64,000 nt of DNA from an uncultured virus (IMG/VR IMGVR_UViG_3300020151_001403) (Duplodnaviria > Heunggongvirae > Uroviricota > Caudoviricetes): IMG/VR virus record IMGVR_UViG_3300020151_001403; one strand, given 5' to 3'. This document shows positions 10,284 through 64,000 of this stretch, piece after piece. The position numbers were made by a program, and so were the translations under genes. The first letter of the stretch is position 1. Each line of letters opens with the position of its first letter. Under the pieces are notes generated by a model that was given only the letters and a program-made list of their open reading frames with translations, did no database searches and had not been told where the DNA came from.

Positions 10284-11339
10284 ATGAATAGTCAGAATAT
10301 TTTAAAGTTTTATGGGTCTAAATTAGATTTAAAATTAGATAGTTCGGAGTTATATGACTTTGAAATGGGTGGTGTTGAAAATGATTATGACATTGGTTTG
10401 TTGGATTTAACCACCGGTGGAACAATAACCTATGATTCTTTAGTTGTTGATTCAGATTGTTTGAGTTTGACACCAATAAGTAGTTTATCACCTTGGATAA
10501 TCAATATTGGTCAACTATATACGGGATATACTTGTGATTTTACGGTAAGAAAAAGAACCGAGAGTGGTTGGACATTAGATTTTGTTTTTAGTGGTAATAC
10601 AAGAGCAAATAACACATTTTATAGTTGGGGGACCCAATCCGGCGATGTTGATAATTATTTACGTTTTTATTTTGTAAGTGATGGTTCAATAGATTGGGAG
10701 GTAACAAGATATTCGGGATATTGTAACACCGTTTCGGGATATACTGAAACAACTTATGTTGATACAGGTAGTACTTCACCCTTAGCTACCGGTCAAACAC
10801 AAAGTGATTTTAATGTTATAATAACATTTGAACGTTACAACAGGTATGAATTATGTGATTTGTCAAATGAGGGTGGGTGGAATGATTTAATAACGGGCGT
10901 AACTATTTTAAATCCAACGGATATAATGACGGGCGCAACTGAAGAGGTATCATTTATTGAAGTATTAAATGAAAAATGGTCGAATGAAAGAAATAAAAGA
11001 CTTGGTGTTTTAAAAATTTATCTGAATGGTGGTTTAATTTATAAAAAAGAAAATTGGGAAGAAGTTATTCCATCAAAAAGAGATGTTGATGCTTCAACTT
11101 TTCAAAAGTTTTTTAGTAGTTTAAGTAACTTAACAATAAAAAAAATAAAATATTTTGAAGAACCTCTAAATTTCTTACAAATAAATCATAATTATTTAAC
11201 ATCCATTAAACCATATTATAACATAACAGATGTTACGAACCCATGTGGTGATGTTTTAATGGGGTTCACAGATATAGGTATTTTATCTGAAAATAATGAA
11301 AACATATTCACGGAAGACAATAATATATTAATCTATTAA
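10284..11339 (+). CDS. Putative virion structural protein
   Basis: 351 aa, beta-rich, many [ST]GxT motifs, late motif upstream. Confidence 0.55.
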   Translation: MNSQNILKFYGSKLDLKLDSSELYDFEMGGVENDYDIGLLDLTTGGTITYDSLVVDSDCLSLTPISSLSPWIINIGQLYTGYTCDFTVRKRTESGWTLDFVFSGNTRANNTFYSWGTQSGDVDNYLRFYFVSDGSIDWEVTRYSGYCNTVSGYTETTYVDTGSTSPLATGQTQSDFNVIITFERYNRYELCDLSNEGGWNDLITGVTILNPTDIMTGATEEVSFIEVLNEKWSNERNKRLGVLKIYLNGGLIYKKENWEEVIPSKRDVDASTFQKFFSSLSNLTIKKIKYFEEPLNFLQINHNYLTSIKPYYNITDVTNPCGDVLMGFTDIGILSENNENIFTEDNNILIY

Positions 11340-11352
11340 ACTATTTATCTAA

Positions 11353-11850
11353 ATGGCAAATAAAAAAATATCAGAATTATCAAGTTCACTAGCACCACCA
11401 TTAAGTGGGGTAACTGCAATTGTACATGGTGGCACAACATATAAATCTACATTATCCACATTAAGAGAGGTTTTGGTTGATAGTGGCTCTCATGTATTTA
11501 CCGGAAGTCAAACCATCAATGGTAATTTAGTTGTTAGTGGTTCTTTAACCGCACAACAATATATATTAAGTTCATCAATTTCAAATATAATAACTGAAAC
11601 AATAAGCGGTTCTTCAAACTTTGGTAATTCATTAGATGATAGACATGTATTTACTGGTAGTGTTCAAATAACAGGCTCATTAAACGTTACGGGTAGTGTA
11701 ACATTTAATAATTCAATAACCACAAACGGATATAACATTTTAACAAGTGTTACATCAAGTTTTGTTAATGATGCAGCCGCCGCTGCTGGTGGGGTACCAT
11801 TACAAGGATTATATAGAAGTGGTAGTTTTGTATTAATTAGATTAACATAA
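11353..11850 (+). CDS. Putative tail fibre-like structural protein
   Basis: N-terminal KKISEL, repeated FTGSxxIxGSL beta-repeats, AAAGGVPLQGLYR C-terminus. Confidence 0.55.
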   Translation: MANKKISELSSSLAPPLSGVTAIVHGGTTYKSTLSTLREVLVDSGSHVFTGSQTINGNLVVSGSLTAQQYILSSSISNIITETISGSSNFGNSLDDRHVFTGSVQITGSLNVTGSVTFNNSITTNGYNILTSVTSSFVNDAAAAAGGVPLQGLYRSGSFVLIRLT

Positions 11851-11861
11851 TATTATAGAAT

Positions 11862-16324: not shown

Positions 16325-16361
16325 AATTGATTTATTCTTATAAATACTTTATATTTAAGAT

Positions 16362-20411: not shown

Positions 20412-23288
20412 ATGGCAAATTCAAACAGAGTATTTGTTTCTCCCGGTGTATACACATCCGAGAAAGACTTAACATTCGTAGCTCAAAGTGTCGGAGTAAC
20501 CACATTGGGATTAGTTGGTGAGACCTTAAAGGGTCCCGCTTTTGAACCAATTTTAATAGGTAACTTCGATGAATTCAAAACATATTTTGGTGGCACATCC
20601 CCTGAAAAGGACACCGCCAACAATCCAAAATATGAGTTACCTTACGTAGCAAAATCTTATTTACAAGAGTCAAACCAATTATTCGTAACAAGAGTATTAG
20701 GTTTAACTGGATATAAACCTTATAAAACCTTTGGTGTAAAGACTATTGGTGGTGTGATTGTTGATACGGTTACAACTCCATCTTCAGGAACTACGGTAAT
20801 GTCTGCAACAACTGCAACAATTACGGGAGCAACTTACTATGGTGAATTATCAGGTAAAACGGCATCTGATGGGATAACTTCAGTAACCAACTATATTGTA
20901 CAAAACTATAGTGGTTTTACGGGTAGTACCGGCTCATATTTTACAATCGGTCTTTTACCAAGTTCGGCAACTGCAGGTTTAACAGGCACAACTTTAACAT
21001 CACCTGTTTCATTAAACAACACAAAAGATTGGTATAACGTTTATTACAATCTTACAGGTGCAACTATGAGTACTGTTGATGGTGTTTATTCTTACGTATT
21101 CGTTTGGAATTCGACGGGAAATACTTTCAACGTAACAAGATACAAATATAGTGCAGAATTAAATACTGATTATAATAATGTAACAGTTGCGGCTTTACGT
21201 TCAAGAGGTCGATATGTTGCGGAAAAATTAACATTAGAAGTAACGGGTAACACAAGTTTCTCAGTGTCTAATGTTTCAGGTGGTAATGTTGGGACAAATC
21301 CATTAGGTGAGTTCTTAATTAACACAACAGGAATAACGAGTGGTTCTAAAGAATTTACTGTTTCATTGGATACCACATCACCAAAATATATTACTAAAGT
21401 TTTAGGAACGGGGGTATTTGATAAATCATATTCGGATTTCCCGTTATACGTTCATGAAGTATATCCTAATTTATTAGCTAAAGCATACCAAAAAGGTTAT
21501 ATCCTTGGATTGAGTTTAGATGAAGCTTATGAATTAGATGGAAATAATTTCTTAACTCAATGGGATACACCAGCATCTCCAATGGTAGTTTCTGAAGTTC
21601 GCGGTGGAGCGGTTTCTGATTTGTTTCAAGTTATTACAATATCGGACGGTGAAGGTGCTAACAACCAAGTAAAAATATCAATCATTAATATCGATTTAGA
21701 TACCACAGAATTTGATTTAGTAGTACGCGATTTTAACGATACAGACGATAATCAAGTGGCTATTGAGAAATTCTCAAGATGTTCAATGAATCCTGATTCA
21801 GTTGGTTACATTGGTAGAAAAGTTGGTACTTCAGATGGTGAATTTGAATTACGTTCAAAATATATCATGTTATCAATGGCGGATAATCATCCAAGTGATG
21901 CAATACCTGCAGGTTTTAAAGGATTTACATCAAACACTTCATTCTCTGGTACAACATTAGGTAGTGCATTATTCAAGACTGTATACTACAGTGCTGGTGA
22001 TGTTACAGGATATGAATCTGATGGAACACCAATTACTTCTAGCGGAGATAAAGTTAAGAAAGTTTCTTTAGGACTTTCTTCACAATTTGGTTACGATAAT
22101 GACTTATTAAAATATAAAGGTATATCTGCAGCAGGAGTAACTTACGGTTTTCACTTGTCTTCACAAGCGGCAACAATAACAGGTTCAACACCTTCAGGTT
22201 ATGCTTATCAATCAACACCATATAATTTAGAAGGTACCAATAAAGGATTATTATCAAACATTAACTACCGTAAATTTACATTTGCAGTGGCGGGTGGTTT
22301 TGATGGTTGGGATATATACAGAACTATTAGAACTAATAATGACAACTACGTATTTGGTAAAGCAATTTATGTAAGTGGTCATACTACAGGTTCAAAAGAT
22401 GGTGTGTTTAGTTCAACAGTTGGTAATTCAGATTATTACGCATACTTACAAGGTATCGAGACATTTGCAAACCCTGAAGCGGTTGATATTAACGTATTCG
22501 CAACTCCAGGTATTAACTTCTACGACCACAGTTCATTAGTTTCTCAAGCAATTGATATGGTTGAGAATGAAAGAGCGGATTCATTATACGTAATAAATTC
22601 ACCTAATGTAACAGGTGCAACGGCATCTGATGACGTGGTTGAATATCTTGATAACTTATCAATCGATTCTAACTACTCAGCAACTTATTGGCCTTGGATT
22701 CAAGTGAGAGACACAGATAATGCAACTCAACTTTATATCCCACCAACAGGTGAAGTTTTAAAGAACATTGCGTTAACTGATAACGTAGCGTATCCTTGGT
22801 TCGCACCGGCAGGTTATTCAAGAGGTTTGGTAAATGCAATCAAAGCAACTAAAAAATTAACTCTTGACGAAAGAGATACTCTATACAAAAATAGAATTAA
22901 CCCAATCGCAACATTTGCCGATACAGGTACTATTGTTTGGGGTAACAAAACTCTTCAAGTTAAAGAATCTGCTTTAGATAGAATCAACGTAAGAAGATTA
23001 TTATTAAGAGCAAGAAAATTAATTTCAGCAGTTGCAGTTAGATTACTATTCGAACAAAATGACGAACAAGTAAGAAATGAATTCTTAAGATTAGTTAACC
23101 CTATCTTAGAATCAATTAAGAAAGAAAGAGGATTAAATGAATTTAGAGTTGTTGTATCTAATGACCCTGAGGACATTGATGCAAACACTTTAAGAGGTAA
23201 GATTTATATCAAACCTACAAGAGCTCTTGAATTTATTGATTTGGAATTCATAATTACTCCAACAGGAGCATCATTCGAGAATATCTAA
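20412..23288 (+). CDS. Contractile tail sheath protein
   Basis: FVSPGVYTSEKD, GPAFEP, YSATYWPW, PWFAPAGYSRG, RINVRRLL, IKPTRALEFI. Confidence 0.95.
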   Translation: MANSNRVFVSPGVYTSEKDLTFVAQSVGVTTLGLVGETLKGPAFEPILIGNFDEFKTYFGGTSPEKDTANNPKYELPYVAKSYLQESNQLFVTRVLGLTGYKPYKTFGVKTIGGVIVDTVTTPSSGTTVMSATTATITGATYYGELSGKTASDGITSVTNYIVQNYSGFTGSTGSYFTIGLLPSSATAGLTGTTLTSPVSLNNTKDWYNVYYNLTGATMSTVDGVYSYVFVWNSTGNTFNVTRYKYSAELNTDYNNVTVAALRSRGRYVAEKLTLEVTGNTSFSVSNVSGGNVGTNPLGEFLINTTGITSGSKEFTVSLDTTSPKYITKVLGTGVFDKSYSDFPLYVHEVYPNLLAKAYQKGYILGLSLDEAYELDGNNFLTQWDTPASPMVVSEVRGGAVSDLFQVITISDGEGANNQVKISIINIDLDTTEFDLVVRDFNDTDDNQVAIEKFSRCSMNPDSVGYIGRKVGTSDGEFELRSKYIMLSMADNHPSDAIPAGFKGFTSNTSFSGTTLGSALFKTVYYSAGDVTGYESDGTPITSSGDKVKKVSLGLSSQFGYDNDLLKYKGISAAGVTYGFHLSSQAATITGSTPSGYAYQSTPYNLEGTNKGLLSNINYRKFTFAVAGGFDGWDIYRTIRTNNDNYVFGKAIYVSGHTTGSKDGVFSSTVGNSDYYAYLQGIETFANPEAVDINVFATPGINFYDHSSLVSQAIDMVENERADSLYVINSPNVTGATASDDVVEYLDNLSIDSNYSATYWPWIQVRDTDNATQLYIPPTGEVLKNIALTDNVAYPWFAPAGYSRGLVNAIKATKKLTLDERDTLYKNRINPIATFADTGTIVWGNKTLQVKESALDRINVRRLLLRARKLISAVAVRLLFEQNDEQVRNEFLRLVNPILESIKKERGLNEFRVVVSNDPEDIDANTLRGKIYIKPTRALEFIDLEFIITPTGASFENI

Positions 23289-45289: not shown

Positions 45290-45292
45290 AAT

Positions 45293-53100: not shown

Positions 53101-54722
53101 GTATACCATATTATCCGGGTAGTCCATATAGAGAATCTTTAACAAGCCCCGGTTCTAACTACACGATTTTGGCGGCAATTGCCGGACAATCTGATACTTT
53201 AAGATTACCAAATATCGCATCACTTGCTGGTGGACCGATTTATAGTTACAATAAAAAAACAAAATCTGGTTTAACGGAAATAAGAGATGGGGTTTTTACT
53301 ATCGTACCGGTAATTGAAGGAAGGTCAAGAAATAATTCCGTTATTAAAGAATGGTATAAGAGAAAAAGAGTTGGTTTATTTTTCTGTGGGGGAATTCTAA
53401 ATTATTCATTTATAGACAATTGGTTAAATGGTATTTTATATTTTTTTAAGTTTGATTATAGAATTAAATGGGATAACGTAGACGAATTAGATTTAAATCA
53501 AAGAGGAAGTAAATTTCCAAGAGAATTAATATTTTTTAATGTTTTAGAACAAAAATTCTATTATAGAAGTACACCATACAACCCTACCACAAAAACGTTT
53601 GTTGGTCAAAGTTATTCGGGGTATAAAGAACTACTTCATCCAACCACATTATATGATGTGGGGGTTAGAGATGAGTTTTTATATGAGATATGTTATGACC
53701 CCAAAGTTGACCCGAATTGTTCAGTTGTTAGAGATATTTCTGTTAGTTCATACCAAGACCCTGGTGGTGTTATGGAACACGCCATAAATTATAGAATGGA
53801 TGCTTCAAATTCAAAATTCGATGTGTCTGATTTTTTTAATGATAATACGGGATATAATTTCGGTAAAGTATTAGATGGTGACATCACTCAATTAATGTCA
53901 ATTAACAATGAAGTTGGTATTGAGGCATTTGATTTGGATACGTCAAAATATTTCATGTTTAATGGTGAATATTTGGACCCTGAAAATGAACTTTATTCTG
54001 AATATTTTAAGAAAAACGGTGATTTTGGTCCAACACCAATTGATTTTAAAATGGATGACAATGGTAGATTTGTCAGACTGTGTTTAAATAATAGATTGGG
54101 TGACTATACTCAAAAAGTTCCGTTCTTCTTATGGGATAAAAAGGGTACAGGATTTGGAGCTGGCGGTACTAATTCCGATAAACAATCTTGGGATAGAACA
54201 AAAATTGCTGTGCAACCATTACAACGCATAGTATCAACTTCAGGTATAACATTTTCCGGACAATATTATACTGGCGATACAACAAATTACATATTTCCTG
54301 ACGGTGAAGAGGAATACATGTTAATGCCAATGACAGTAAATCACGGTTTGTTTTCATTTGAAGGAAATTATGTGGATATGGTGGATAGATTTGATGTAAT
54401 TAAAATGAACACGGCACCAAATATACCTGCATCAGGTTTTACTGAAGGTGATTTATGGTTAAGTGTTACTAACGGTACAGTTTCCCAACCTCAACTTGGT
54501 AACATCTATGTAATATCGGGTGGCACGTGGAACGGACCTATACCATATGAACAAAATAATAAGGAAATGTTTATATTCCCTACAGCTCAAAACTACAGTG
54601 GTAACAAACAAGTACTGTCAACAGGATTCCAATTTTATTTTGGTTTAAGACCGGGTAATTCATCATTAGATAGATTAATAAAATATTATGGACCAAAAGG
54701 TGCATTTCCACCAGCTGAATAA
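50148..54722 (+). CDS. Very large putative virion/baseplate-associated protein
   Basis: GVVCGRI...GVPNARISIF...TNSSGDFMIWGVPLG N-terminal domain; internal hydrophobic segment. Confidence 0.6.
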   Translation: MIQKHRISTNIGEDQKITVELKQDYDFLEILSLKFTQKEAYTSLCADYGVVCGRITANNGLGVPNARISIFVPQNDIDVNDPVISTLYPYTSTTDKDENNYRYNLLPSRKQHGGHVPTGTFFDQTDILTREEVLEVYENYYSYTVKTNSSGDFMIWGVPLGQQKIHVDVDLSDMGCFSIRPYDFIRQGVDEKKFDRFYNFKSDSDIDGLEQIVKFEKTIEVYPFWGNVDLCEIGITRTDFDLSETGIKIEPISLLLLSSITDSNSDAIKRTGVIRIGSGYKCNLQTGPGRIEGVRYTGKKVIGSDGISTYPELEYFTPGVIEDDGTAMAILPMNLEYTYTNEFGEQEITNDSNKGIATTAVARFRVTLSQGEENPTKGTSPASYLIPNIREFNRYSGGGNGGTIYGTTNSSYSGEYSESLISTYSFSNVFEDYFNVLVPTGVTLESMTLTEKNHKRDLMLGTDNDGVPEDYFYKFIYGKVYTPTSFQGSHYEVSAVESILGLSRRDAFLGIKQIRPSSEDDCSGTTNYVPTNFAFRNRIKFSLLIAEILLFVQYIYAVVIIWAYETLGSALWSAGRALMRIDIIFIGHALADFARDNLLKWGMRIMEGGQTVLPLTTYPDCDECTVDVENSEPSQGRNLDLYCRSAEIKLRVVPYDGYIYLLFDSKNGSWLNSSTVTGSTFLPSLFPNEAAKESCATGITVSQLSTLHNSTIPTYPSDSNSRYVGKIYPLVGTNESTDTFSDMYVALSSTYAQSELRTYFQTVSITTPTNGGSSIRMTADSNSVTATYVDISGGAILTTENITVSALLKDNCTQNYRTVDLIILKGSSTASATIQMIDCNGSTVLETYERVSAISPTKYREFNTDTSSSQFYTNQLALKISYSYWALYGGNNYADGGIEDIRDLYAVLRIYDRNNLKDTTPAELEIEQGCAKYDKFYDESGNLYTYLWGRTSDYGTTTYPSNQGNGQIDMLEDWGGRYRKNYNYGIPYYPGSPYRESLTSPGSNYTILAAIAGQSDTLRLPNIASLAGGPIYSYNKKTKSGLTEIRDGVFTIVPVIEGRSRNNSVIKEWYKRKRVGLFFCGGILNYSFIDNWLNGILYFFKFDYRIKWDNVDELDLNQRGSKFPRELIFFNVLEQKFYYRSTPYNPTTKTFVGQSYSGYKELLHPTTLYDVGVRDEFLYEICYDPKVDPNCSVVRDISVSSYQDPGGVMEHAINYRMDASNSKFDVSDFFNDNTGYNFGKVLDGDITQLMSINNEVGIEAFDLDTSKYFMFNGEYLDPENELYSEYFKKNGDFGPTPIDFKMDDNGRFVRLCLNNRLGDYTQKVPFFLWDKKGTGFGAGGTNSDKQSWDRTKIAVQPLQRIVSTSGITFSGQYYTGDTTNYIFPDGEEEYMLMPMTVNHGLFSFEGNYVDMVDRFDVIKMNTAPNIPASGFTEGDLWLSVTNGTVSQPQLGNIYVISGGTWNGPIPYEQNNKEMFIFPTAQNYSGNKQVLSTGFQFYFGLRPGNSSLDRLIKYYGPKGAFPPAE

Positions 54723-56491
54723 TGGAAGAAAATAAGGAAATACTATTACCTAGTAAAAGGTTTAAAAAGGCGGAAGAAGAAGATTTATCATTAAAACTAA
54801 ATCTTGATACAACACAATCACTTTTAAGGATTGGTGAGAGAGATATTGTGTTGGATATTGCTAAATTGTATAATGATGAAAGAAATAGAAGTGTAAATTA
54901 TAAAATATACGGTAAAATGAAGATGATTTTCCGTAATATGTATAGTGGTGCAACATCATATCCACCCTTAGAAGAGAGACTTTATTTATCGGGCGATGGA
55001 AGTGATGAAAATTACACGGGATTTCTTCCATATGACGAGTTTGCATTCTTAAGAAGGGATTTGTATAGAGAAGTGAATAATCCTTCAACAGGTACAACGG
55101 GAAACACATTGGGAACCTATACACCAACAATAACAACTACAGGTTCACAATCACATAGAACAATTACACCAATTACCGCACCGTATCATAATTGGAACTT
55201 ATATTTAAGTTATGTTTTTAGTGGTGATACCACATACCCAATGACATATTCATTATCTGGTTCAACAAGTAGTGAATGTAATAACGGATTTAATTATTGT
55301 TTTACGGCCGCGGATGGTATACCATTTAGAGTTACAGATAATGGTAAATCTTATAAATTAATAAGTCCGGTCCCACACGGAATGAGTGAGGGAGAATATA
55401 TTGTTTTATCGGGGGGTACTGTTTACATTAGTAGTGTTGGTGATGAAACATACGATTCTGAAAATTATGTAATTAATCTATATAAATCTGAATTTGAAGT
55501 TGGTGATACGTTAAGTGGAGTTGTTTTAGGAAAAAGATGTTTAGATATTAATAATATTTCAGATACTGTTTCAACATATTACGTTCATAAACATAAAACA
55601 TTGACAGATGTCAATGATTATATATTAGATAATGTAGGATTTGAATCACCAATATTTGAGGATGAGAAGAAAATATTATTTGAAAATAGTGCGGGTGTTA
55701 ATGATGTGGTTGTAGAAAGAAATAGAATGGAATCAGTTTTATTTGATTTTAAAGAACCATTAATATTATCGGGATTAACAAATAATTTAGGATACACACC
55801 AACCGAAGTTTTTTTAACAACAATTTTTAGAAACGGAAATGGATTTTTCAATTATCCACCTAAAAATGGTTATAAATTTAATTTCCATAATGAATGGATG
55901 GACGCTCATTTTGATGGTAATAGTAATTTAGAAACTAATATTACTAAAGATACATTTACAATATCAGGAATCACATTTAATAGTGGAAATGTAATACCTA
56001 TAGGTACAATATTAACAGGGGCATTTGTTGAATACAATAAAAAAGAATTAAAAGAAAGAATCATAAGTGAATCTTTTCATAAAATATCTAATCCAACTAC
56101 AATTTTTGATTTTGGTCAAACGGATAATACGGTCTATTCAGGTTCTACTGTAACTAATCCCCTTGGTTTATATTACCAAACACATCAAAGAATTAAATTG
56201 AGAGAATTATCACAATATATTGAGACCTCAAAGACTAACGATGTTTATAATTTACCTGAAAATACAAAATATGACGCAAATGAAAAAGTTTGGAGATGGA
56301 GAGATTTGTACGACCACGGTTATATAGATACTGATGGTTATGGAACTGATTTTCCATATGTTAATAATATCCATTATGTAAAAACCAATCTTAATTTTTA
56401 TTTAAGAAACGAACGATATTATACCAACAAACAAAACGGAATTAATAGTTTTAAAAATAAAATGAATATCGATAATAAATTAGATTGTTAA
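54722..56491 (+). CDS. Putative virion structural protein
   Basis: 589 aa, translationally coupled, rich in [ST]GxT. Confidence 0.6.
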   Translation: MEENKEILLPSKRFKKAEEEDLSLKLNLDTTQSLLRIGERDIVLDIAKLYNDERNRSVNYKIYGKMKMIFRNMYSGATSYPPLEERLYLSGDGSDENYTGFLPYDEFAFLRRDLYREVNNPSTGTTGNTLGTYTPTITTTGSQSHRTITPITAPYHNWNLYLSYVFSGDTTYPMTYSLSGSTSSECNNGFNYCFTAADGIPFRVTDNGKSYKLISPVPHGMSEGEYIVLSGGTVYISSVGDETYDSENYVINLYKSEFEVGDTLSGVVLGKRCLDINNISDTVSTYYVHKHKTLTDVNDYILDNVGFESPIFEDEKKILFENSAGVNDVVVERNRMESVLFDFKEPLILSGLTNNLGYTPTEVFLTTIFRNGNGFFNYPPKNGYKFNFHNEWMDAHFDGNSNLETNITKDTFTISGITFNSGNVIPIGTILTGAFVEYNKKELKERIISESFHKISNPTTIFDFGQTDNTVYSGSTVTNPLGLYYQTHQRIKLRELSQYIETSKTNDVYNLPENTKYDANEKVWRWRDLYDHGYIDTDGYGTDFPYVNNIHYVKTNLNFYLRNERYYTNKQNGINSFKNKMNIDNKLDC

Positions 56492-57330
56492 TGAAAATTT
56501 TACAAAAAACAGGTGATTATAACATAATCATTAATCAAGAAACGGATTTTCAAATGAATTTAGGTTGGGAAGAAAGTCTTGCTCAATTTGAAGAGGAGGT
56601 TTTAGAAGATATCATAAACCCAATCGATAATTATGAAACGGTGAGATATGTTCATTCACCATATAGTGGTATAACAGTAAACACAGGAGATACACAAACT
56701 GATATTTGGTACGATTTTAAATTTATCGATTCAACAAGCGGATACACTAACGGAACTGATTACACATTAGTAGGAATTACCGTTGATGAGAACGCTAAAA
56801 TGTTAAAACAATCGGCTGAAAGTTTTTTTAGGTTAGAATTTTTTAAAACACCACTAATATCAGGAACAACATATGAACCACCAACAAGGATTAATAGAAA
56901 ATTGGCTTTCGCTAAGAATTTATCGTTACCAATAGGTGAGAAGTATTTTTACACTCCAATCAATGATAATATACATGTTCCCGTTTTTATGGGTTCAAAT
57001 TACAAAAATAAGGAAAATATGTATATTTTTTGGTTTCAAGATGACACCGTTTTGAATGATTCCGTTTTAAGTGGAAACACTTTTTTTATGACTTCTAAAT
57101 TTTTTAATGCTAAAGATGGTACAATAATGGATTTCACAACTACGGGTTTAACAATAGACCAAGAAGTTGTTGAGTATAGGGATATGTACTATAAGGTTAA
57201 TATAAATAAAAACGACTATTCTTATAAAATATATAGATACACAGGAGGAACAACTACAGAAACAGATAGAGTGGGAAATATTAGTGGAGGTACTATAAAT
57301 AATGCGATTAAGTTTTACGAAAAACGATAG
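56485..57330 (+). CDS. Putative virion structural protein
   Basis: 281 aa (ATG alternative at 56491), rich in [ST]GxT. Confidence 0.6.
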   Translation: MLMKILQKTGDYNIIINQETDFQMNLGWEESLAQFEEEVLEDIINPIDNYETVRYVHSPYSGITVNTGDTQTDIWYDFKFIDSTSGYTNGTDYTLVGITVDENAKMLKQSAESFFRLEFFKTPLISGTTYEPPTRINRKLAFAKNLSLPIGEKYFYTPINDNIHVPVFMGSNYKNKENMYIFWFQDDTVLNDSVLSGNTFFMTSKFFNAKDGTIMDFTTTGLTIDQEVVEYRDMYYKVNINKNDYSYKIYRYTGGTTTETDRVGNISGGTINNAIKFYEKR

Positions 57331-57344: not shown

Positions 57345-60300
57345 ATGAGAAAAAATAAGTACACCATTAGACGTAATCAAATACCAAATGTTAGACTGGT
57401 TTCATTAACCGGACAGACATGGTATGACTCTAATGATAATCTTATTTCATGGTCTGGCAACACAGGTAATCTACCAACTGGTTTCACACCAAGTAACGGA
57501 TATGTGGTTTATAATATTACAGGTGGCACTATTAATGGTGGTTATTACAAATGGGGAGTACCAACGGGAAACACATGGAATGCTATAACTGGTACAACAT
57601 CGTATATTAATTCACAAATTTATCCAACCAATCAACTACCACTTTATTTGGAGGCAACTTCTGATGAATATGGTTCAATGGTTGCTTTCGACGGTAACTT
57701 AGCTATCGAATCAAGTCAAACACAAATTAATGCCAACTTCACATATGAGGTGGATTGTAATACTGTAATCGTTACCAATACAACAAATCTAAATAATGTT
57801 AAAGGTTTAAATGACATTACATTTACAGTAAATTGGGGTGATGGAACAACATCACCTATCGGCGTTTATGGAGTTTGTACAGGTGTTGATTGTCATAAGG
57901 CAACAAAAATATATAGTTTAAACGGGTCAAAAAATATTAAAGTAACATTAGATGCTCCTTGGGTAAATAATGAATTAAGTAAGGCGGTTAATATTGATTG
58001 CCAAGTGTTCCCAACACCAACACCAACACCTACCGTTACACCTACATTATCTATTACCGCGACAAATACAAAAACACCTACAGCAACACCAACGATTACA
58101 CCAACAAATACAAATACACCAACTGTTACAAAAACGTCGACACCTACAACCACACCAACAAAGAGTATTACACCGACGGCAACTCCAACAACAACGATGG
58201 AGGCTACACCTACAATGACACCAAGTGTTACACCAACTGTATTGTGTGAATTTGATGTTAATATCGAAGTACTCGGAATTATTCCTGGTGAGGGATGTGA
58301 TTTTATTTACACGGGTGGATATTCTCAAACACCATTAGAATATATAATTGATTTAGGTAACAATGCTGGAACATTTAATTTCTATTATAGTGGTTTCACT
58401 ATTAACGATAGTTTCGATGTTTATTATCCAGTTGACACTTTATTAACTACGACATCAATTGTAAGTCAATCAAACATAACAACAGGTTCAACGGTATTCT
58501 ATGCTGATGGTACATCAAATTATGTGAGAGTTGTTGTTAATCAAGTAGATTCAGGAGATATTGAAACTTTATGGGCGTTTATGGTAACATGTATTGTGCC
58601 TCTATCACCTACCCCAACACCAACACATACCGCTACACCAACGATTACTCCAACAAAAACAAGTACAGTTACACCTACAAAAACACCTACAAAAACACCA
58701 ACACCAACAAGGACGGCCACCCCTACACATACACCAACACCAACAACTACACCAAATTATGTGTGTGGTGTGCCAATCAATGGTAGGTACATATATAACA
58801 CATCAGGAACAACTGAATATTTTGTTCATGGTATAACACAATCGGGAACTATTGCGTTTGAATATGAATCATACGATTTGGGTGATAGTTTTGAATTATT
58901 TTATGAGAATGTATCGTTAGGTGCACCAATTTCGGGTACGGGAATCACATATTTTACACTTAACTATAATAGTGATGATTTTGTAAAAGTTAGAGTTACT
59001 AATTTTGATTATGAAACCGTATATCGATTTACAGTATATTGTGTTAATGTACCGGGACCATCTAATACACCAACCCCCACACCTACTAAAACTGTTACAC
59101 CAACAGTTACACCGACAAACACAATCACACCAACAGTAACACCAACAAATACTATTACACCAACAAAAACAATTACACCCACCCCAACCAAAACAAATAC
59201 ACAAACACCAACAGTTACTAAAACAAACACACCTACACCATCTATTACAAGAAGCGCTACTCCAACACCTACAAATACAGGTACACCTGGTGTAACCCCA
59301 ACACCGACTAAGACAACAACGCCAACTATTACACCAACTAAAACTGTAACACCAACGGTAACCCCAACAAATACCGTAACACCAACAGTTACACCGACAA
59401 ATACAATAACACCAACAAATACACCTACAAATACAATAACACCAACAGTTACACCAACAATTACACCTACCAACACAATAACACCAACAAATAGTGTTAC
59501 ACCAACCAACACGCAAACTCAAACCCAAACAGTTACACCAACAAATACAATTACGCCAACTAATACTATAACACCTACCAATACAGTAACACCTACTAAC
59601 ACGCAAACTCAAACTCAAACAAATACACCTACTAATACAATAACACCAACCAACACTATAACCTCAACAGTTACCGTAACACCAACTAATACTATTACAC
59701 CAACAAATACTGGTACACCAACAAACACACCAACAAATACGCCTACAAATACTGGTACACCAACAAACACACCAACAAATACCTCCACACAAACACCAAC
59801 TCAGACTGAGAATTTTGTACCATCACAAACTCCAACAAATACCGTAACACCAACTAACACAATTACACCAACAAATACTGTAACACCAACAGTTACCGTA
59901 ACACCAACTAATACTATTACACCAACAGTTACACCAACAAATACAATTACGCCAACTAATACTATAACACCTACGACCACTAAAACAGCAACACCAACAC
60001 CGACGCCAACAAATCCTTGTGGACCATATAATTTAGATGTTTCATTATTATCAACTGATTGTTCATATAGTAGCGGTGACCCTAATGCACTATATTTGAA
60101 TGTATTCACAGTAGGTAGTTATCAAGTAAGATTGGTCGACACTTTAGGTATCAATACGACAGCATGGCAGACGGACAATAATTTCTTTGACGGTATACCT
60201 AATGGTACATATTATGCTCAAGTTAGAAGTACCGCAGCAAATCAGTGTACCGCAAATAGTAACGAATTCGAATTAGATTGTTTTGGAGAATTTATTATTA

Positions 60301-61115
60301 CGAATGTTACGTTTGACTGTGATTTAGGTACGGTTTCAATATCAGTTACGGGAGGAACACCAAATTATAGTTACAGTATTAATGGTGGTGTCACATATAG
60401 TGCACCAACAGGAAGTACTACATATACTACAACATTTACAGGTGATACTATAAATGTGTGGGTTAAGGATTCAACAAATAATGTACAAAGATGGTATACA
60501 ATTTATTGTAATGTAACGACAACATTTATACCAATTTATTTAGACCAAGGTGCGTCTGGACACATCTTAGAACCTGATAATACACAAAGAACAAGTGAAT
60601 TTAGTGTTAAAAAGGCTAAAAATCAAACTCACTCTTTAACTGGTGTTACCAATGGTAATACCACATTCCACGGATGGTCATATGGTAATAGTAGAAATAG
60701 TCAATTAATTACTGCGCAAAATAACTACACGCACACATTCGAAAGAGATGTTAGGGTTTATGCTTTATTCAAAAATTTGAGTGCGTATACTGAGAACTTC
60801 TGTTTTACATTAACAACTTTAGGTTATGTTTTAACATGTGAAGAAGAAACCACATTCTGTAGTAATTGTAGTGTAACCGAACAAGTTTTCTTTAAACCAG
60901 TCGATTACATAAATGCGAAGGGAGACTATGGTAAGATTGTAAATTGGTACAAAGATGAAGCATTTACCACACCGGCAGATAACGGTTACTATAGACTACC
61001 ATCACCAACTAATAAAAATAACGATAAAGAACTATTTATGTTAAGTAATGGTGTACCAACTTCAAAAGGAATTTGTGGTGGATGTACACCGGGTAACACA
61101 CCACTTAGTTGTTAA
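57345..61115 (+). CDS. Mucin-like Thr/Pro-repeat appendage protein with PKD-like and Cys-bounded beta domains
   Basis: VNWGDG (PKD-like), three TPT-repeat blocks, Cys-rich C-terminal domains. Confidence 0.75.
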   Translation: MRKNKYTIRRNQIPNVRLVSLTGQTWYDSNDNLISWSGNTGNLPTGFTPSNGYVVYNITGGTINGGYYKWGVPTGNTWNAITGTTSYINSQIYPTNQLPLYLEATSDEYGSMVAFDGNLAIESSQTQINANFTYEVDCNTVIVTNTTNLNNVKGLNDITFTVNWGDGTTSPIGVYGVCTGVDCHKATKIYSLNGSKNIKVTLDAPWVNNELSKAVNIDCQVFPTPTPTPTVTPTLSITATNTKTPTATPTITPTNTNTPTVTKTSTPTTTPTKSITPTATPTTTMEATPTMTPSVTPTVLCEFDVNIEVLGIIPGEGCDFIYTGGYSQTPLEYIIDLGNNAGTFNFYYSGFTINDSFDVYYPVDTLLTTTSIVSQSNITTGSTVFYADGTSNYVRVVVNQVDSGDIETLWAFMVTCIVPLSPTPTPTHTATPTITPTKTSTVTPTKTPTKTPTPTRTATPTHTPTPTTTPNYVCGVPINGRYIYNTSGTTEYFVHGITQSGTIAFEYESYDLGDSFELFYENVSLGAPISGTGITYFTLNYNSDDFVKVRVTNFDYETVYRFTVYCVNVPGPSNTPTPTPTKTVTPTVTPTNTITPTVTPTNTITPTKTITPTPTKTNTQTPTVTKTNTPTPSITRSATPTPTNTGTPGVTPTPTKTTTPTITPTKTVTPTVTPTNTVTPTVTPTNTITPTNTPTNTITPTVTPTITPTNTITPTNSVTPTNTQTQTQTVTPTNTITPTNTITPTNTVTPTNTQTQTQTNTPTNTITPTNTITSTVTVTPTNTITPTNTGTPTNTPTNTPTNTGTPTNTPTNTSTQTPTQTENFVPSQTPTNTVTPTNTITPTNTVTPTVTVTPTNTITPTVTPTNTITPTNTITPTTTKTATPTPTPTNPCGPYNLDVSLLSTDCSYSSGDPNALYLNVFTVGSYQVRLVDTLGINTTAWQTDNNFFDGIPNGTYYAQVRSTAANQCTANSNEFELDCFGEFIITNVTFDCDLGTVSISVTGGTPNYSYSINGGVTYSAPTGSTTYTTTFTGDTINVWVKDSTNNVQRWYTIYCNVTTTFIPIYLDQGASGHILEPDNTQRTSEFSVKKAKNQTHSLTGVTNGNTTFHGWSYGNSRNSQLITAQNNYTHTFERDVRVYALFKNLSAYTENFCFTLTTLGYVLTCEEETTFCSNCSVTEQVFFKPVDYINAKGDYGKIVNWYKDEAFTTPADNGYYRLPSPTNKNNDKELFMLSNGVPTSKGICGGCTPGNTPLSC
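59060..60015 (+). repeat. Degenerate 12/18-nt coding repeats (TPTV / TPTNTI)
   Basis: ACACCAAC-rich tandem units; smaller blocks at about 58010-58240 and 58605-58755. Confidence 0.9.
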
Positions 61116-61125
61116 AAAATAATAT

Positions 61126-64000
61126 ATGCCTTTAAGTAACACATATTCGGGTTCATTTAACATAACAGGGTTTACAAAAAATAAACCTGATTACATAGTT
61201 ACGGATAGTAGCTCAACGGGCAAAAAGTTTGCTACGGATACTATTGTTTTTAGTGGCGGTACCACTAATCACTCAAGTGTAAGATTCGATATTACATATA
61301 CGGGAGATGCTGATGTTGCAATGGTTAGTTTTGCGTTAGATAAAGGAAACCAATTATCCTTTAGTCTTAATGAACAAGGGCCATATGTACCATTTTATGT
61401 TGCTCATCCTATATATGGACCAAATCAAATATCACATACCGGACAAGGTATTGAATTAAGTAGTGGTATTAAAAAAAGTGTTTATATTATTTACAATGCG
61501 AACCAAGAAAGTGTTACCGAAAATGTATTAATTTATATGTCGGTTGGATTAACAAACGGTAAAACGCCAACAAATAATCACAACTATACAATAGAATTTA
61601 ATTGCCCAAGTCCGGTTTATACATATAATGTTGGTGTTCATGTTTATTCACCATATGATTCAATTAACACCCCAAAATTAACCACAACATTAGTATCGTT
61701 AAAAGAAATTACCACATGGACCGAAATGGGACCATTAGGTGCAAATATAACAAGAGTATATCATGATAAATTAATGGTATTACCTGCTTATCCTTATTAT
61801 TATGGTTATAATAATAAGGTTTATAAAGTTGGCGTACCATTTAGTAGGTCATTTGGTCTTTTATATCAATACAAACTTAGGATTTCACCACTTATTCGTG
61901 AAGTGTTAGGTAATCCAGACCAAATAACTGAAAATGTAATGGGACCAATGGATTGGACAGGTGTTTTTGGTTTTACCGAACCAGGTCAGTTTCCCGCGTG
62001 TGTGTTTCCCGTAATGGACAGAGGTATTATAAAACAAATAACCGATAAAGTTAAAATACCACAACCACAAAAATATGAATATTATTTAGGATTTGACTAT
62101 ACAAATAAACAAAAATCAAACGATGATTATTTTGTTGAATACTCATTTAAAGAAAAAAAATTCTATCCAATCACAGGTTTAAGACATGCGTTAAATAGAT
62201 TATTAAATGGATACGTTAGAGGTGTTGATATTGAAAATTCTCCAGAAATTATTAAAACTGACTTTTGGGGTGGTTTATTAGATTTTGGTAAAGATGTATT
62301 TGGTGTTGTACCTTTTGTTGCCGGTTGGTTGGGAGATTTTCTTTACAATATTTTTGGATTAAATATCGATTTATCACAACTTTTTAATTGGATTACAGGC
62401 CCATTACAACAAGTAATGACAAAAATTACTGCATATGTTGGACAAACGTTCATAACATCGGCAACAGTATTTATAGAGACATTTTTAATTCCACTTTATT
62501 TATTTTACGTTGGGGTTAAATTTTTAATTTTTATTTATGACTATATAATACCTTCAGATTATACCATAGAAGAACCTTGTCGACAGTTAATAAGATTTAA
62601 AACAACAGGACCTTATATTGAAACGGGACAAACTATTATACAAAATTATTCGTACTTAGATTACACCTTTTATTCAATTAATAATGAGGTTACTTTAGTT
62701 ACCAATAAAACCAGAACAATGAACGGTTATTATTGTGACGGAGCGTATTTTTATCAGCAATCAGGTAATGTTGTTACAACTAAAGAATTATCCTCAACAA
62801 CTGGTCTTATTAAATATGATAAAGATTTTAACCCTATTTTGGGATTTGATAAATCTATAACTCCCGATAGTCCAACATTTATACAAAATGGATTATCATT
62901 ATTGTTTTTACCATACACATCTGGTGTACCTATAAATGACCCATTTGATTTTTCCGGGTTTGATTTTTATTTCAATTTCCCCATATCAGGCTCAACAACT
63001 CCCGATATTGGTGGTGAAATGGAGGAAACTCAATTAAATGTTGATTTATATATACCTCCCGGAACTTCAATAAGTTTTAATAGTCAAGAAGAGGCAGACG
63101 GAATTGCTCAAGGTTTATATGATGGTATGGTATCGGCAATAACAGGTACCACTGATGGTGATTATAACTATTCATCACCAATTAGTGTTAATGACATTGG
63201 TATTGTGACATCATATTTTACACATGAAATAAAAATTGAAAATGAACCCAAAATTTTAGGTTTATTTTATAATAATACCGATAATCAAAACCTTACAATT
63301 GGTAAAAACGTATTTTATGATATAACAGGAAGATATAAAGTTTTAAATGGTTTTTATTCCACAACTGGAGATACCTCATATAGATTATTTTATAAAATTA
63401 ATGATGGCCAATTAACTGACATCTATACAATGCAAACTTCAGGGTCAACCATTGTAAGTGGGGTGACAAGTGGAGACACTTTATCGGTGGTTACAAGTAA
63501 TTTGAATTATACAAGCGACTGGTATTTCTTTGACGCTAATTATAACAATATTTACAATTTAACTAACGATTATAAAAATAAAAAAGTTTTTAATCCAAAT
63601 ACTTTGTATAATGAAGCATTCATGAAAAGAGGATATGTTTCATCAGGTTACACCGATTTAAATATATATGATAGTAACATTGGACCTGTTGGTTCAATAA
63701 CTGAAGGTGAAACTGGTACGTATTTAATTTTATCACCTTGGAATCATGGTGAAACATTCTATTACTACAGAGGTGAGAATGTGACTGTTGATATTGAAGA
63801 GATTTGTACATTACAATCAACAGTAGTTGACCCATTATATGGTTTCTATATTGTTGGTAGAGATGATAATGGATTCCTTTCATCTTTACATAATAATGTT
63901 GAAATGACCATTAAAGTATACGTTGATGCTGTACTTGCTCAAACATATACAGGTATAACAAGTTCATTATCAGAAGCAAAAACATATATTCCATATACTG
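61126..64000 (+). CDS. Partial very large putative virion protein (runs off the window end)
   Basis: ATG at 61126 (MPLSNTYSGSFNITGFT...); same frame still open where checked at 62221-62560 and at the window end. Confidence 0.75.
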   Translation, partial: MPLSNTYSGSFNITGFTKNKPDYIVTDSSSTGKKFATDTIVFSGGTTNHSSVRFDITYTGDADVAMVSFALDKGNQLSFSLNEQGPYVPFYVAHPIYGPNQISHTGQGIELSSGIKKSVYIIYNANQESVTENVLIYMSVGLTNGKTPTNNHNYTIEFNCPSPVYTYNVGVHVYSPYDSINTPKLTTTLVSLKEITTWTEMGPLGANITRVYHDKLMVLPAYPYYYGYNNKVYKVGVPFSRSFGLLYQYKLRISPLIREVLGNPDQITENVMGPMDWTGVFGFTEPGQFPACVFPVMDRGIIKQITDKVKIPQPQKYEYYLGFDYTNKQKSNDDYFVEYSFKEKKFYPITGLRHALNRLLNGYVRGVDIENSPEIIKTDFWGGLLDFGKDVFGVVPFVAGWLGDFLYNIFGLNIDLSQLFNWITGPLQQVMTKITAYVGQTFITSATVFIETFLIPLYLFYVGVKFLIFIYDYIIPSDYTIEEPCRQLIRFKTTGPYIETGQTIIQNYSYLDYTFYSINNEVTLVTNKTRTMNGYYCDGAYFYQQSGNVVTTKELSSTTGLIKYDKDFNPILGFDKSITPDSPTFIQNGLSLLFLPYTSGVPINDPFDFSGFDFYFNFPISGSTTPDIGGEMEETQLNVDLYIPPGTSISFNSQEEADGIAQGLYDGMVSAITGTTDGDYNYSSPISVNDIGIVTSYFTHEIKIENEPKILGLFYNNTDNQNLTIGKNVFYDITGRYKVLNGFYSTTGDTSYRLFYKINDGQLTDIYTMQTSGSTIVSGVTSGDTLSVVTSNLNYTSDWYFFDANYNNIYNLTNDYKNKKVFNPNTLYNEAFMKRGYVSSGYTDLNIYDSNIGPVGSITEGETGTYLILSPWNHGETFYYYRGENVTVDIEEICTLQSTVVDPLYGFYIVGRDDNGFLSSLHNNVEMTIKVYVDAVLAQTYTGITSSLSEAKTYIPYT

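What the first reader, a model, noticed from the sequence alone, without database searches (positions are those of the whole stretch)
10284..64000. Recurring [S/T]-G-x-T motif concentrated in virion proteins: candidate sequon for phage-encoded virion glycosylation
Seen (hand counts): 9 copies in the 351 aa protein at 10284 (TGGT, TGYT, SGWT, SGNT, SGYT, TGST, TGQT, TGVT, TGAT), 8 in the 281 aa protein at 56485, 9 in the 589 aa protein at 54722, at least 12 in the sheath (mostly in its insertion regions), and many in 57345 and 61126. I found only 2 in the 965 aa polymerase and none in the 807 aa NrdA. These proteins look otherwise unrelated, so shared domain repeats do not explain it. Established: some phages glycosylate capsid and tail proteins with their own glycosyltransferases, and the Bacteroidota O-glycosylation sequon is D-[S/T]-hydrophobic, which is different. 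Inference: the motif is a recognition site for a post-translational modifier, plausibly the three glycosyltransferases at 1206-6911, giving a glycan-coated virion. It could instead be a docking motif for a decoration protein.
Basis: partly seen in the sequence, partly recalled or inferred. Interest (0 to 1): 0.85.

Follow-up and report, generated by a model that had tools for sequence, protein, structure and literature searches.

The report
Sequon-like Ser/Thr-Gly-x-Thr tag on phage tails
The outer tail, baseplate and fibre proteins of this uncultured freshwater-type jumbo phage and its relatives carry the four-residue word Ser/Thr-Gly-x-Thr about six times more often than chance, in a way that looks like a tag read by an enzyme, most plausibly one of the phage's own sugar-transferases, although no attached sugar has been shown.

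Summary
Observation confirmed. Every hand count is right. Nine tail, baseplate, fibre and lectin-like proteins hold 86 [ST]GxT against 15.3 expected (z 18). The other 36 proteins hold 8 against about 5.9.

The word is ordered and exact:
- [ST]GxS is depleted (2 vs 10), and the reverse and permuted words are at chance.
- Ala is not accepted at position 2, and Pro is avoided at x.
- A hydrophobic residue precedes it.
- The signal is protein-level (86 in frame, 2 out of frame).

It is clade-wide. In two complete relatives of about 330 kb, 8 of 409 and 8 of 407 ORFs carry 94/12.9 and 101/13.7, and the rest sit at expectation. The target proteins partly change between genomes, and sites turn over (at least 193 and 165 gain/loss events in two families). 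Distant T4-like phages and phi92 show at most about 2×.

Interpretation partly supported. It behaves like a sequon. Three glycosyltransferase genes are real and co-conserved, and one is Agt/AmGGT-like. But the capsid and inner tail are not enriched, no reader enzyme is identified, and there is no chemistry. The scan noted similar [S/T]-[G/A]-x-T tags on other jumbo phages before. My literature searches found no description of it.

The parts
10284..11339 (+). 351-aa ConA-like/CBM40-like jelly-roll protein, 9 [ST]GxT sites; sits beside the glycosyltransferase block
   Evidence: 9 vs 0.48, z 12.3; AF2 pLDDT 79.5; Foldseek CBM40 and other ConA-like jelly rolls, E 6e-7; 120 homologues hold 908 vs 53.7; virion membership not shown
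20412..23288 (+). tail sheath, 14 sites, 13 of them in the N-terminal/insertion part (residues 125-655)
27068..31825 (+). 1585-aa tail/baseplate-region protein, 5 sites (weak, z 2.5)
32135..37861 (+). 1908-aa tail/baseplate-region protein, 7 sites (z 5.2)
   Evidence: G003 homologue 10 vs 1.5; G004 homologue 2 vs 1.5
50148..54722 (+). 1524-aa protein just downstream of gp6-like baseplate wedge, 9 sites (z 5.5)
54722..56491 (+). 589-aa distal baseplate/fibre protein, 9 sites (z 10)
   Evidence: G003 homologue 17 vs 1.03
56485..57330 (+). 281-aa distal baseplate/fibre protein of unknown fold, 8 sites (z 13.8)
57345..61115 (+). 1256-aa fibre-like protein, 14 sites (z 3.4), with long Thr-Pro linkers
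61126..63999 (+). fibre-like protein running off the window (958 aa seen), 11 sites (z 8.2)
1206..1985 (-). GT2-family (GT-A) glycosyltransferase candidate, 259 aa
   Evidence: Pfam PF00535 E 8.5e-7, above cut-off; atlas clusters 'GT2-like'; best solved relative GmaR, E 0.0025, marginal
1982..3046 (-). Agt/AmGGT-like GT-B glucosyltransferase candidate, 354 aa
   Evidence: profile vs PDB 8xsg, E 2.3e-13 over 286 residues; family function from PMC12159676
5685..6911 (-). GT-B (RfaG/GT4-like) glycosyltransferase candidate, 408 aa
   Evidence: phrog_7162 E 2.9e-41; PglA-type C-terminal half, E 0.012; atlas; 79 clade loci

Best explanation
Φ-[Ser/Thr]-Gly-x(not Pro)-Thr is a short linear recognition tag under selection on the outward-facing tail apparatus of this jumbo-phage clade: the sheath insertion domains, the distal baseplate, the fibres and a lectin-like protein. 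The most likely reader is a soluble phage-encoded glycosyltransferase acting in the infected cytoplasm. It would attach a sugar to the hydroxyl of the first residue, where Ser and Thr are interchangeable, with Gly+1 and Thr+3 as recognition determinants. Further transferases, such as the Agt/AmGGT-like enzyme at 1982-3046, would then extend the glycan. The result would be a glycan-decorated tail periphery whose sites are gained and lost quickly. Shown: the enrichment, its exactness, its restriction to one protein class, its clade-wide conservation with positional and target turnover, and the presence and co-conservation of three transferase genes. Inferred: that the tag is covalently modified, that the modification is a sugar, which residue is the acceptor, and which enzyme reads it.
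For: Enrichment and order specificity: 86 vs 15.3, [ST]GxS 2 vs 10, permutations at chance. SG.T and TG.T are the two top outliers among all three-fixed-residue words in G004's enriched ORFs (z 18.1 and 15.5, next 7.5). Sequon-like grammar over 281 sites in 25 proteins of three genomes: Pro at x 2 vs 13.3; charged residues 16 vs 53 at -1 and 19 vs 53 at -2; hydrophobic at -1 148 vs 95; Ser 135 and Thr 146 at position 1. Ala at position 2 is not enriched (4/7.2, 6/5.8, 3/7.3). Protein class: in complete relatives 8 of 409 ORFs hold 94 vs 12.9 and the other 401 hold 114 vs 105 (G003); 8 of 407 hold 101 vs 13.7 and the other 399 hold 48 vs 48.5 (G004). Not fold-bound: no shared domains. G004 homologues of the window's 589-, 1524- and 1908-aa proteins are not enriched (1/0.3, 0/0.55, 2/1.5), while three G004 fibre-sized proteins with no window homologue are (14/1.6, 17/1.7, 28/3.7). 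Outgroup sheaths lack it (Mel-JY01 0 vs 0.74, immuto 2 vs 1.41). The 17 sites in two AF2 models lie in mixed contexts: coil, strand start, strand end, mid-strand. Turnover: 33 and 45 motif columns and at least 193 and 165 parsimony changes in 120-sequence families, while enrichment persists at 908 vs 53.7 and 514 vs 53.3. Enzymes: three GT genes next to the motif-dense lectin-like gene, conserved in G003 (70-73% identity) and G004 (37-50%) and found together in 67-68 of 78 clade loci. The 354-aa one is related to AmGGT (E 2.3e-13), whose Agt homologues extend glucose on glycopeptides in a cytoplasmic protein-glycosylation system (PMC12159676, abstract and sections 4 and 9). Four motif-poor outgroup phages have none of the three.
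Against: No chemical or structural evidence of any modification. The capsid, the largest virion surface, is hardly enriched (G003 major capsid protein 3 vs 0.6). phi92 carries a 26%-identical homologue of the 408-aa enzyme within a four-GT cluster and shows no enrichment (0 of 223 ORFs at p<1e-3; 36 vs 24.1 overall). Absence of the GTs from the outgroups is uninformative, because any clade-specific gene behaves the same way. The three GTs could instead serve DNA hypermodification or host-surface changes: the thymidylate-synthase family is present in 2 of 3 complete relatives and a DUF1599 nucleotide-modification domain is present in G003. The best single candidate for a polypeptide-initiating enzyme, PF11397 (E 1e-59 in G003), is absent from the complete G004, which still has the motif. 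A hydrophobic residue at -1, 6 of 17 first residues inside predicted strands, and four nearly invariant columns (for example TGAT in 118 of 120) would also fit a structural role. Unrelated phages show a 1.7-2× baseline excess in fibre proteins, so part of the signal may be a generic beta-protein preference.
Confidence: 0.45

Rival explanations
1. A local structural device. The tetrapeptide stabilises strand ends or tight turns in the beta-rich folds that this clade uses for its outer tail proteins, and is selected for folding or stability without any reader.
For: Hydrophobic residue at -1, Gly at +1, beta-branched Thr at +3 and Pro avoidance all suit strand-turn-strand geometry. Sites lie at strand edges or in loops; 2 of 17 show the E--E hairpin pattern. 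Four columns are almost invariant in 120 homologues. Unrelated phage fibres show a 1.7-2× excess.
Against: Local contexts are heterogeneous: 7 all-coil, 4 coil-to-strand, 3 strand-to-coil, 1 mid-strand, 2 hairpin-like. Residues at x include Y, W, V, I, L and F, unlike turn positions. The proteins share no domain. Homologous folds do without it in outgroups and in G004. There are at least 358 gain/loss events in two families. Asn and Asp, the usual turn formers, are not enriched at position 1.
Confidence: 0.2
2. A non-covalent docking or adhesion word. The motif is bound by a phage protein (a decoration protein, an assembly chaperone or the lectin-like 351-aa protein), or it contacts host surface polymers directly.
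For: Restriction to the outer tail apparatus. A conserved ConA-like lectin-fold protein is encoded nearby.
Against: A four-residue word in folded, structurally different contexts is a poor docking site. The lectin-like protein is itself among the most motif-dense (9 sites). Up to 28 copies occur per protein with rapid positional turnover, which is unlike stoichiometric docking. No binding test was run.
Confidence: 0.13
3. A tag for another covalent change at Ser/Thr (phosphate, acyl, nucleotidyl, methyl or other), made by a phage or host enzyme rather than a glycosyltransferase.
For: The same sequon-like grammar applies. Relatives encode many other modifying enzymes: methyltransferases, carbamoyltransferase, APS kinase, 2OG oxygenases, radical SAM.
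Against: No protein kinase or similar enzyme was found in the window. The only modifying enzymes conserved beside the motif-dense gene are glycosyltransferases.
Confidence: 0.12
4. Chance, amino-acid composition or a nucleotide-level signal.
For: The proteins are rich in Ser, Thr and Gly.
Against: z 18 against global and local shuffles. Permuted words are at chance. 86 matches in frame vs 2 out of frame. Replicated in two other genomes and 240 homologues.
Confidence: 0.01

Closest known systems
Virion O-glycosylation of mycobacteriophages by phage-encoded glycosyltransferases (Freeman et al. 2023). The paper is not held; I know it only from the passage in PMC12619734 and from recall.
   Same: Phage-encoded soluble transferases would act on the phage's own structural proteins in the infected cell.
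   Different: In that system the glycans sit at the C-termini of capsid and tail-tube subunits, per the PMC12619734 passage. Here the capsid and tube are not enriched, the sites are internal and scattered over the sheath insertions, baseplate periphery and fibres, a defined four-residue word exists, and no glycan has been shown.
Cytoplasmic NGT-Agt protein glycosylation of Actinobacillus (ApNGT + ApAgt; PMC12159676 abstract and sections 4 and 9)
   Same: Soluble enzymes glycosylate folded proteins in the cytoplasm at a short sequon. The window's 354-aa protein is a distant member of the Agt/AmGGT family (E 2.3e-13).
   Different: That sequon is N-x-S/T on Asn (recalled), and N-x-[ST] is not enriched here (126 vs 140). 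No GT41/NGT-type family appeared in the Pfam scans. AmGGT itself uses oligosaccharide, not glycopeptide, acceptors.
General O-glycosylation of Bacteroidota, sequon D-[S/T]-[A/I/L/V/M/T]
   Same: The predicted host phylum of the related 'moraphages' is Bacteroidota (PMC12619734 passages). It is also an O-linked Ser/Thr sequon of three to four residues.
   Different: That word is not enriched here (39 vs 35.9). That system acts outside the cytoplasm (recalled), where phage virion proteins do not pass.
Eukaryotic and giant-virus short sequons (N-x-S/T with x not Pro; proteoglycan xylosylation at S-G-x-G; chlorovirus capsid sequons). All recalled, none tested here.
   Same: The grammar is similar: an acceptor followed by a small residue, a free position that avoids Pro, and a hydroxyl residue at +2 or +3. 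Sites turn over on viral surface proteins.
   Different: Different enzymes, compartments and acceptor chemistry. This is an analogy only.
'Moraphages', freshwater jumbo phages of 200-307 kb (PMC12619734; passages read)
   Same: Same gene repertoire as this window and its relatives: PhoH, dUTPase, sigma factor, gp6, gp25, sheath, PolB. Four core glycosyltransferase orthogroups. Contigs of the window's clade reach 335 kb.
   Different: Membership of this window in that named lineage was not tested by phylogeny. In the text I searched, the word 'motif' occurs only in the reference list.

Membership tests
Short linear modification sequon (generic behaviour) | Ordered word enriched over composition, with permuted words not enriched | tested here: met
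   86 vs 15.3; reverse 19 vs 15.4; [ST]GxS 2 vs 10; top outlier in the unbiased scan
Short linear modification sequon (generic behaviour) | Independent of fold and homology; positions gained and lost while density is kept | tested here: met
   No shared domains; 33 and 45 columns with at least 193 and 165 changes; target proteins change in G004
Short linear modification sequon (generic behaviour) | Sites solvent-exposed on the folded protein | tested here: inconclusive
   Only DSSP strings were available: 11 of 17 first residues in coil and 6 in strand. No coordinates, so no accessibility.
Short linear modification sequon (generic behaviour) | Covalent modification present at the sites | not testable with these tools
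   Needs mass spectrometry or structure of virions or co-expressed proteins
Mycobacteriophage-type virion glycosylation | Phage-encoded glycosyltransferases | tested here: met
   Three in the window; about 20 GT-family hits in relative G003
Mycobacteriophage-type virion glycosylation | Targets are the C-termini of capsid and tail-tube subunits | tested here: not met
   Tube 0 sites; G003 capsid 3 vs 0.6; sites are internal
Bacteroidota general O-glycosylation | D-[S/T]-[A/I/L/V/M/T] sequon enriched on targets | tested here: not met
   39 vs 35.9
NGT-Agt cytoplasmic N-glycosylation | N-x-S/T sequon enriched on targets | tested here: not met
   126 vs 140
NGT-Agt cytoplasmic N-glycosylation | Agt-family elongating glucosyltransferase | tested here: met
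   Profile of 14 sequences vs 8xsg, E 2.3e-13, residues 47-332 vs 30-319
NGT-Agt cytoplasmic N-glycosylation | GT41 NGT/HMW1C-type initiating enzyme | tested here: not met
   No such Pfam family among the 45 window proteins or the 244 G003 ORFs scanned. The 42 not rescanned lie in the block syntenic with the window. 16 boundary-spanning ORFs and ORFs under 110 aa were not scanned.
[S/T]-[G/A]-x-T tag noted earlier in this scan on other jumbo phages | Ala accepted at position 2 | tested here: not met
   [ST]AxT 4 vs 7.2, 6 vs 5.8, 3 vs 7.3 in three genomes

The most novel reading that the evidence does not exclude
A widespread clade of freshwater jumbo phages runs its own cytoplasmic O-glycosylation system. 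The system reads a defined sequon, hydrophobic-[Ser/Thr]-Gly-x(not Pro)-Thr, on folded outer-tail proteins. Phages in the clade gain and lose sequons quickly, so each lineage wears a different glycan pattern on its host-recognition apparatus. This would be the first defined O-sequon for any phage and for soluble bacterial-type O-glycosyltransferases.
Probability: 0.35. Interest if true: 0.85.

Novelty: new variant of a known kind. Interest (0 to 1): 0.7.

Why it matters
Phage virion glycosylation is known from one group, the mycobacteriophages, and without a sequon. A defined tag on tail sheaths, baseplates and fibres in a large environmental clade would make phage protein glycosylation predictable from sequence. 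It would give a simple test system: a 281-aa or 351-aa substrate with 8-9 sites and three candidate enzymes encoded next to it. It would also suggest that glycan shields or glycan-mediated adhesion shape host recognition in jumbo phages. If the tag turns out to be structural or a docking word, it is still an unusually strong clade-specific sequence rule that needs explaining.

Tried and rejected
- DNA-level cause: rejected.
- The excess of ACG/TCG codons at position 1 seen is a general [ST]-Gly codon-context effect, 20/86 in the motif vs 20/92 outside it.
- Local composition: rejected by 30-aa block shuffles.
- Hidden shared repeats: rejected.
- Generic property of phage fibres: four distant T4-like phages give 39/22.1, 8/7.5, 25/11.7 and 5/3.6 and phi92 gives 36/24.1. 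At most about 2×, with no [ST]GxS depletion.
- PF11397 (polypeptide GlcNAc-transferase family, function recalled) as the universal reader: rejected, because it is absent from the complete G004, which has the motif.
- GT408 family as a predictor of the motif: not supported (phi92).
- Co-occurrence through the most divergent GT408 loci (L088-L090): uninformative. Those records are 3-18% complete and hold no gp6-like gene.
- Whole genome of the window: not held.
- The fold of the 281-aa protein found no match.
- Literature: no paper describing the motif. Freeman et al. 2023 is not held.
- Complex prediction, read laying, the look-up of sequencing runs and the search of protein representatives were not used. 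None would settle whether the sites are modified.

Full report
**What the window is.** The 64-kb window (about 31% G+C) is part of a T4-like contractile-tailed phage. It encodes:
- tail sheath (20412-23288), tube, hub, gp25-like and gp6-like baseplate proteins;
- family-B DNA polymerase, helicases, gp32-like SSB and a UvsX-like recombinase;
- NrdAB, PhoH, dUTPase and a sigma-like factor.

Its relatives in IMG/VR sit on contigs up to 335 kb, so it is a jumbo phage. A paper on freshwater 'moraphages' describes the same core gene set: 200-307 kb, predicted Bacteroidota hosts, four core glycosyltransferase orthogroups (PMC12619734; passages read). I did not test membership in that lineage by phylogeny.

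- Against 2000 composition-preserving shuffles per protein, nine proteins stand out:

| Protein start | Sites observed | Expected | z |
|---|---|---|---|
| 10284 | 9 | 0.48 | |
| Sheath (20412) | 14 | 1.69 | |
| 54722 | 9 | 0.69 | |
| 56485 | 8 | 0.34 | |
| 61126 | 11 | 1.41 | |
| 50148 | 9 | 1.78 | |
| 32135 | 7 | 1.29 | |
| 57345 | 14 | 6.0 | |
| 27068 | 5 | 1.71 | 2.5 (weak) |

- The other 36 proteins together hold 8 sites against about 5.9 expected (my sum of the rows). The 14 minus-strand genes at 113-10230 hold none.
- Pooled, the nine proteins hold 86 sites against 15.3 expected (z 17.9). Shuffling only within 30-residue blocks gives the same result (14.8, z 18.6), so local composition does not explain it.

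**The word is exact and ordered (unless stated).**

| Pattern | Observed | Expected |
|---|---|---|
| [ST]GxS | 2 | 10 (depleted) |
| Reverse, TxG[ST] | 19 | 15.4 |
| G[ST]xT | 11 | 15.3 |
| [ST]xGT | 21 | 15.4 |
| [ST]GxxT | 12 | 15.4 |
| NGxT | 8 | 6.3 |
| DGxT | 6 | 4.2 |

- Of 178 [ST]G dipeptides, 86 are followed by xT.
- An unbiased scan of every word with three fixed residues puts SG.T and TG.T at the top in the divergent relative G004 (z 18.1 and 15.5, next 7.5). In the window and G003 they rank directly after the Thr-Pro linker words.
- Over 281 sites from 25 proteins of three genomes:
  - position 1 is Ser 135 / Thr 146;
  - position x avoids Pro (2 vs 13.3) and Glu (4 vs 12.9);
  - position -1 is hydrophobic (148 vs 95) and rarely charged (16 vs 53);
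  - position -2 is rarely charged (19 vs 53).
- Ala is not accepted at position 2 (4/7.2, 6/5.8, 3/7.3). With a hydrophobic residue in front, enrichment is 9-13×.
- The signal is at the protein level. Codons are mixed. The corresponding DNA pattern occurs 86 times in frame, twice out of frame and four times on the reverse strand.

**It is a property of a clade and of a class of proteins.**
- In eight IMG/VR loci around homologues of the 281-aa protein, the same distal baseplate and fibre genes are enriched, while gp6-like, gp25-like and NrdA-like genes have none.
- 120 homologues of the 351-aa protein hold 908 sites vs 53.7 expected. 120 homologues of the 281-aa protein hold 514 vs 53.3. [ST]GxS stays at chance (53/42.3 and 27/31.8). 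These counts are not phylogenetically independent.
- Two complete relatives were fetched and scanned whole:
  - G003 (335,630 bp, syntenic with the window): 8 of 409 ORFs pass Poisson p<1e-3 and hold 94 sites vs 12.9. The other 401 hold 114 vs 105.2. Its major capsid protein has 3 vs 0.6.
  - G004 (320,934 bp, gp6-like 46% identical): 8 of 407 ORFs hold 101 vs 13.7. The other 399 hold 48 vs 48.5.
- So the tag marks the outer tail apparatus, not the virion in general.

**It does not follow folds or families.**
- The nine window proteins share no detectable domain (best blastp E 0.07).
- In G004 the sheath (10 vs 2.05) and the gene in the position of the lectin-like protein (11 vs 1.25) are enriched. 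The homologues of the window's 589-, 1524- and 1908-aa proteins are not (1/0.3, 0/0.55, 2/1.5). Three fibre-sized proteins with no window homologue are (14/1.64, 17/1.72, 28/3.67).
- The sheath of Microcystis phage Mel-JY01 (41% identical over the matched parts) has 0 vs 0.74. That of Flavobacterium phage immuto has 2 vs 1.41.
- Controls overall: immuto 39/22.1, Mel-JY01 8/7.5, S-SM2 25/11.7, a 484-kb uncultured phage 5/3.6, phi92 36/24.1 with 0 of 223 ORFs significant. There is therefore a baseline excess of up to about 2× in phage fibre proteins, and a six- to seventeen-fold excess in this clade.

**Positions turn over.**
- In alignments of homologues, a few columns are almost fixed with Ser/Thr swaps and a free x. 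In the 351-aa family: T216-G-A-T in 118 of 120, and three more at 104-109 of 120.
- Most columns are partly occupied: 33 and 45 distinct motif columns.
- Fitch parsimony on FastTree trees needs at least 193 and 165 gains or losses. Alignment shifts may inflate this.

**Structure.**
- AlphaFold2 models of the 351-aa and 281-aa proteins (70 and 72 sequences; pLDDT 79.5 and 80.0) place the 17 sites in mixed contexts: all coil 7, coil-to-strand 4, strand-to-coil 3, mid-strand 1, hairpin-like 2.
- The 351-aa protein has a ConA-like/CBM40-type jelly roll (Foldseek E 6e-7). The 281-aa protein matched nothing.

**The enzymes.**
- 1206-1985 is GT2 (PF00535, E 8.5e-7, above cut-off). A 13-sequence profile scores best on GmaR (E 0.0025) and also hits SunS (0.027). 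From recall both act on proteins or peptides, but other GT-A enzymes score alike, so this is marginal.
- 1982-3046 is clearly related to AmGGT (8xsg; 14-sequence profile, E 2.3e-13). AmGGT's homologue ApAgt lies in an operon with the cytoplasmic N-glycosyltransferase ApNGT and extends glucose on glycopeptides. AmGGT itself takes oligosaccharides (PMC12159676, abstract and sections 4 and 9).
- 5685-6911 is a viral RfaG-like GT-B.

All three are conserved in G003 (70-73% identity) and G004 (37-50%). The first two lie beside GT408 in 67 and 68 of 78 clade loci. In those loci the lectin-like homologue is present in 69 of 78 and holds 485 sites vs 82.2.

**What weakens the enzyme link.**
- Four motif-poor outgroups lack all three enzymes, but any clade-specific gene would show that.
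- phi92 has a 26%-identical GT408 homologue and no motif.
- G003 encodes a very large glycan toolkit elsewhere (244 of 286 ORFs of at least 110 aa scanned):
  - about 20 GT-family hits, including PF11397 at E 1e-59, next to GT25, GT11 and UDP-galactopyranose mutase;
  - GT7-lectin fusions and GT9;
  - many NDP-sugar enzymes.
- PF11397 is present in G002 and G003 but not in the complete G004, so it is not the universal reader.
- The core transferases might instead modify DNA. The thymidylate-synthase family is present in 2 of 3 complete relatives.

**Reading.** The evidence fits a short linear tag read in trans. O-glycosylation by a phage enzyme is the most economical version: Ser or Thr is equally accepted at position 1, there is a small residue at +1, Pro is excluded at x, Thr is fixed at +3, the tag is restricted to outward-facing tail parts, sites turn over, and glycosyltransferases are co-conserved, one from a family that works on glycoproteins in the cytoplasm. 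I put this at 0.45. The remainder splits between a clade-specific structural device (0.2), non-covalent docking (0.13) and another covalent mark (0.12). Nothing here shows that any site is modified.

**Prior notes and literature.**
- Earlier notes of this scan report a similar [S/T]-[G/A]-x-T tag on tail proteins of other jumbo phages. They are unchecked AI notes and I did not count them as evidence. The one feature I tested, Ala at position 2, is not met in this clade.
- Full-text searches for the motif and for phage virion sequons found no description.
- The moraphage paper discusses glycosyltransferases and mentions virion glycosylation only as a possibility.

Noticed in passing
window 57345-61115 (+), protein residues about 221-300, 411-470 and 561-890: The fibre-like protein is 25% Thr and carries long Thr-Pro-x linkers (TPT 86 vs 10.3 expected across the nine proteins). 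From recall, such linkers are classic O-glycosylated spacers in secreted bacterial enzymes, and they are unusual in a phage fibre.
   Followed up: partly
window 44312-47716 (+) vs G003 178828-181638: The ribonucleotide reductase pair in the window is only 26-28% identical to the pair in the same slot of the syntenic relative G003 (large subunit 807 vs 592 aa), while neighbouring genes are 67-77% identical. The RNR appears to have been replaced in place by a different type.
   Followed up: no
G003 (loci L109-L110), about 226.5-245.4 kb: Four giant collagen-triple-helix-repeat proteins (893, 1631, 1200 and 1241 aa) are followed by five to six small ConA-like lectin-domain proteins and two GT7 galactosyltransferase-lectin fusions. 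2OG-Fe(II) oxygenases, an Asp/Asn hydroxylase family protein and a GT25 hit lie elsewhere. This toolkit resembles collagen glycosylation in giant viruses (resemblance recalled).
   Followed up: no
G003 (locus L101) 70.5-77 kb; also G002 136.5-137.4 kb: A cluster of PF11397 'Glycosyltransferase (GlcNAc)' (E 1e-59), GT25, GT11, a methyltransferase and UDP-galactopyranose mutase. PF11397 is present in G002 and G003 but absent from the complete G004.
   Followed up: partly
G003 (locus L100) 52.5-55.6 kb and (locus L112) 286-294 kb: PfkB sugar kinase, cytidylyltransferase-like, epimerase and cupin genes lie in a row. Two GT9 heptosyltransferase-like genes lie elsewhere. Together they could be a nucleotide-heptose pathway (the inference is mine).
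   Followed up: no
G004 141352-144626 (+): The family-B DNA polymerase of this relative is read as two ORFs (773 and 334 aa) that both match the window's single 965-aa polymerase. It could be a split gene, a frameshift or an intervening element.
   Followed up: no
window 10284-11339 (+) and its homologues in L013-L091: The lectin-like protein keeps a conserved N-terminal part of about 300 aa, but its ORF length ranges from 351 to about 1057 aa among relatives, so the C-terminal additions are variable.
   Followed up: partly
window, all [ST]-Gly dipeptides in the nine proteins: Ser/Thr codons ending in CG are about 22% before a Gly codon, against about 8% of Ser/Thr codons overall. The proportion is the same inside and outside the motif, so this is a codon-context bias.
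   Followed up: yes
phi92 NC_023693.1 102200-105376 and 24524-27785: phi92 has four adjacent glycosyltransferases (gp163-166, one annotated with a polypeptide GalNAc-transferase fold) and a dTDP-rhamnose pathway, but no [ST]GxT enrichment.
   Followed up: partly
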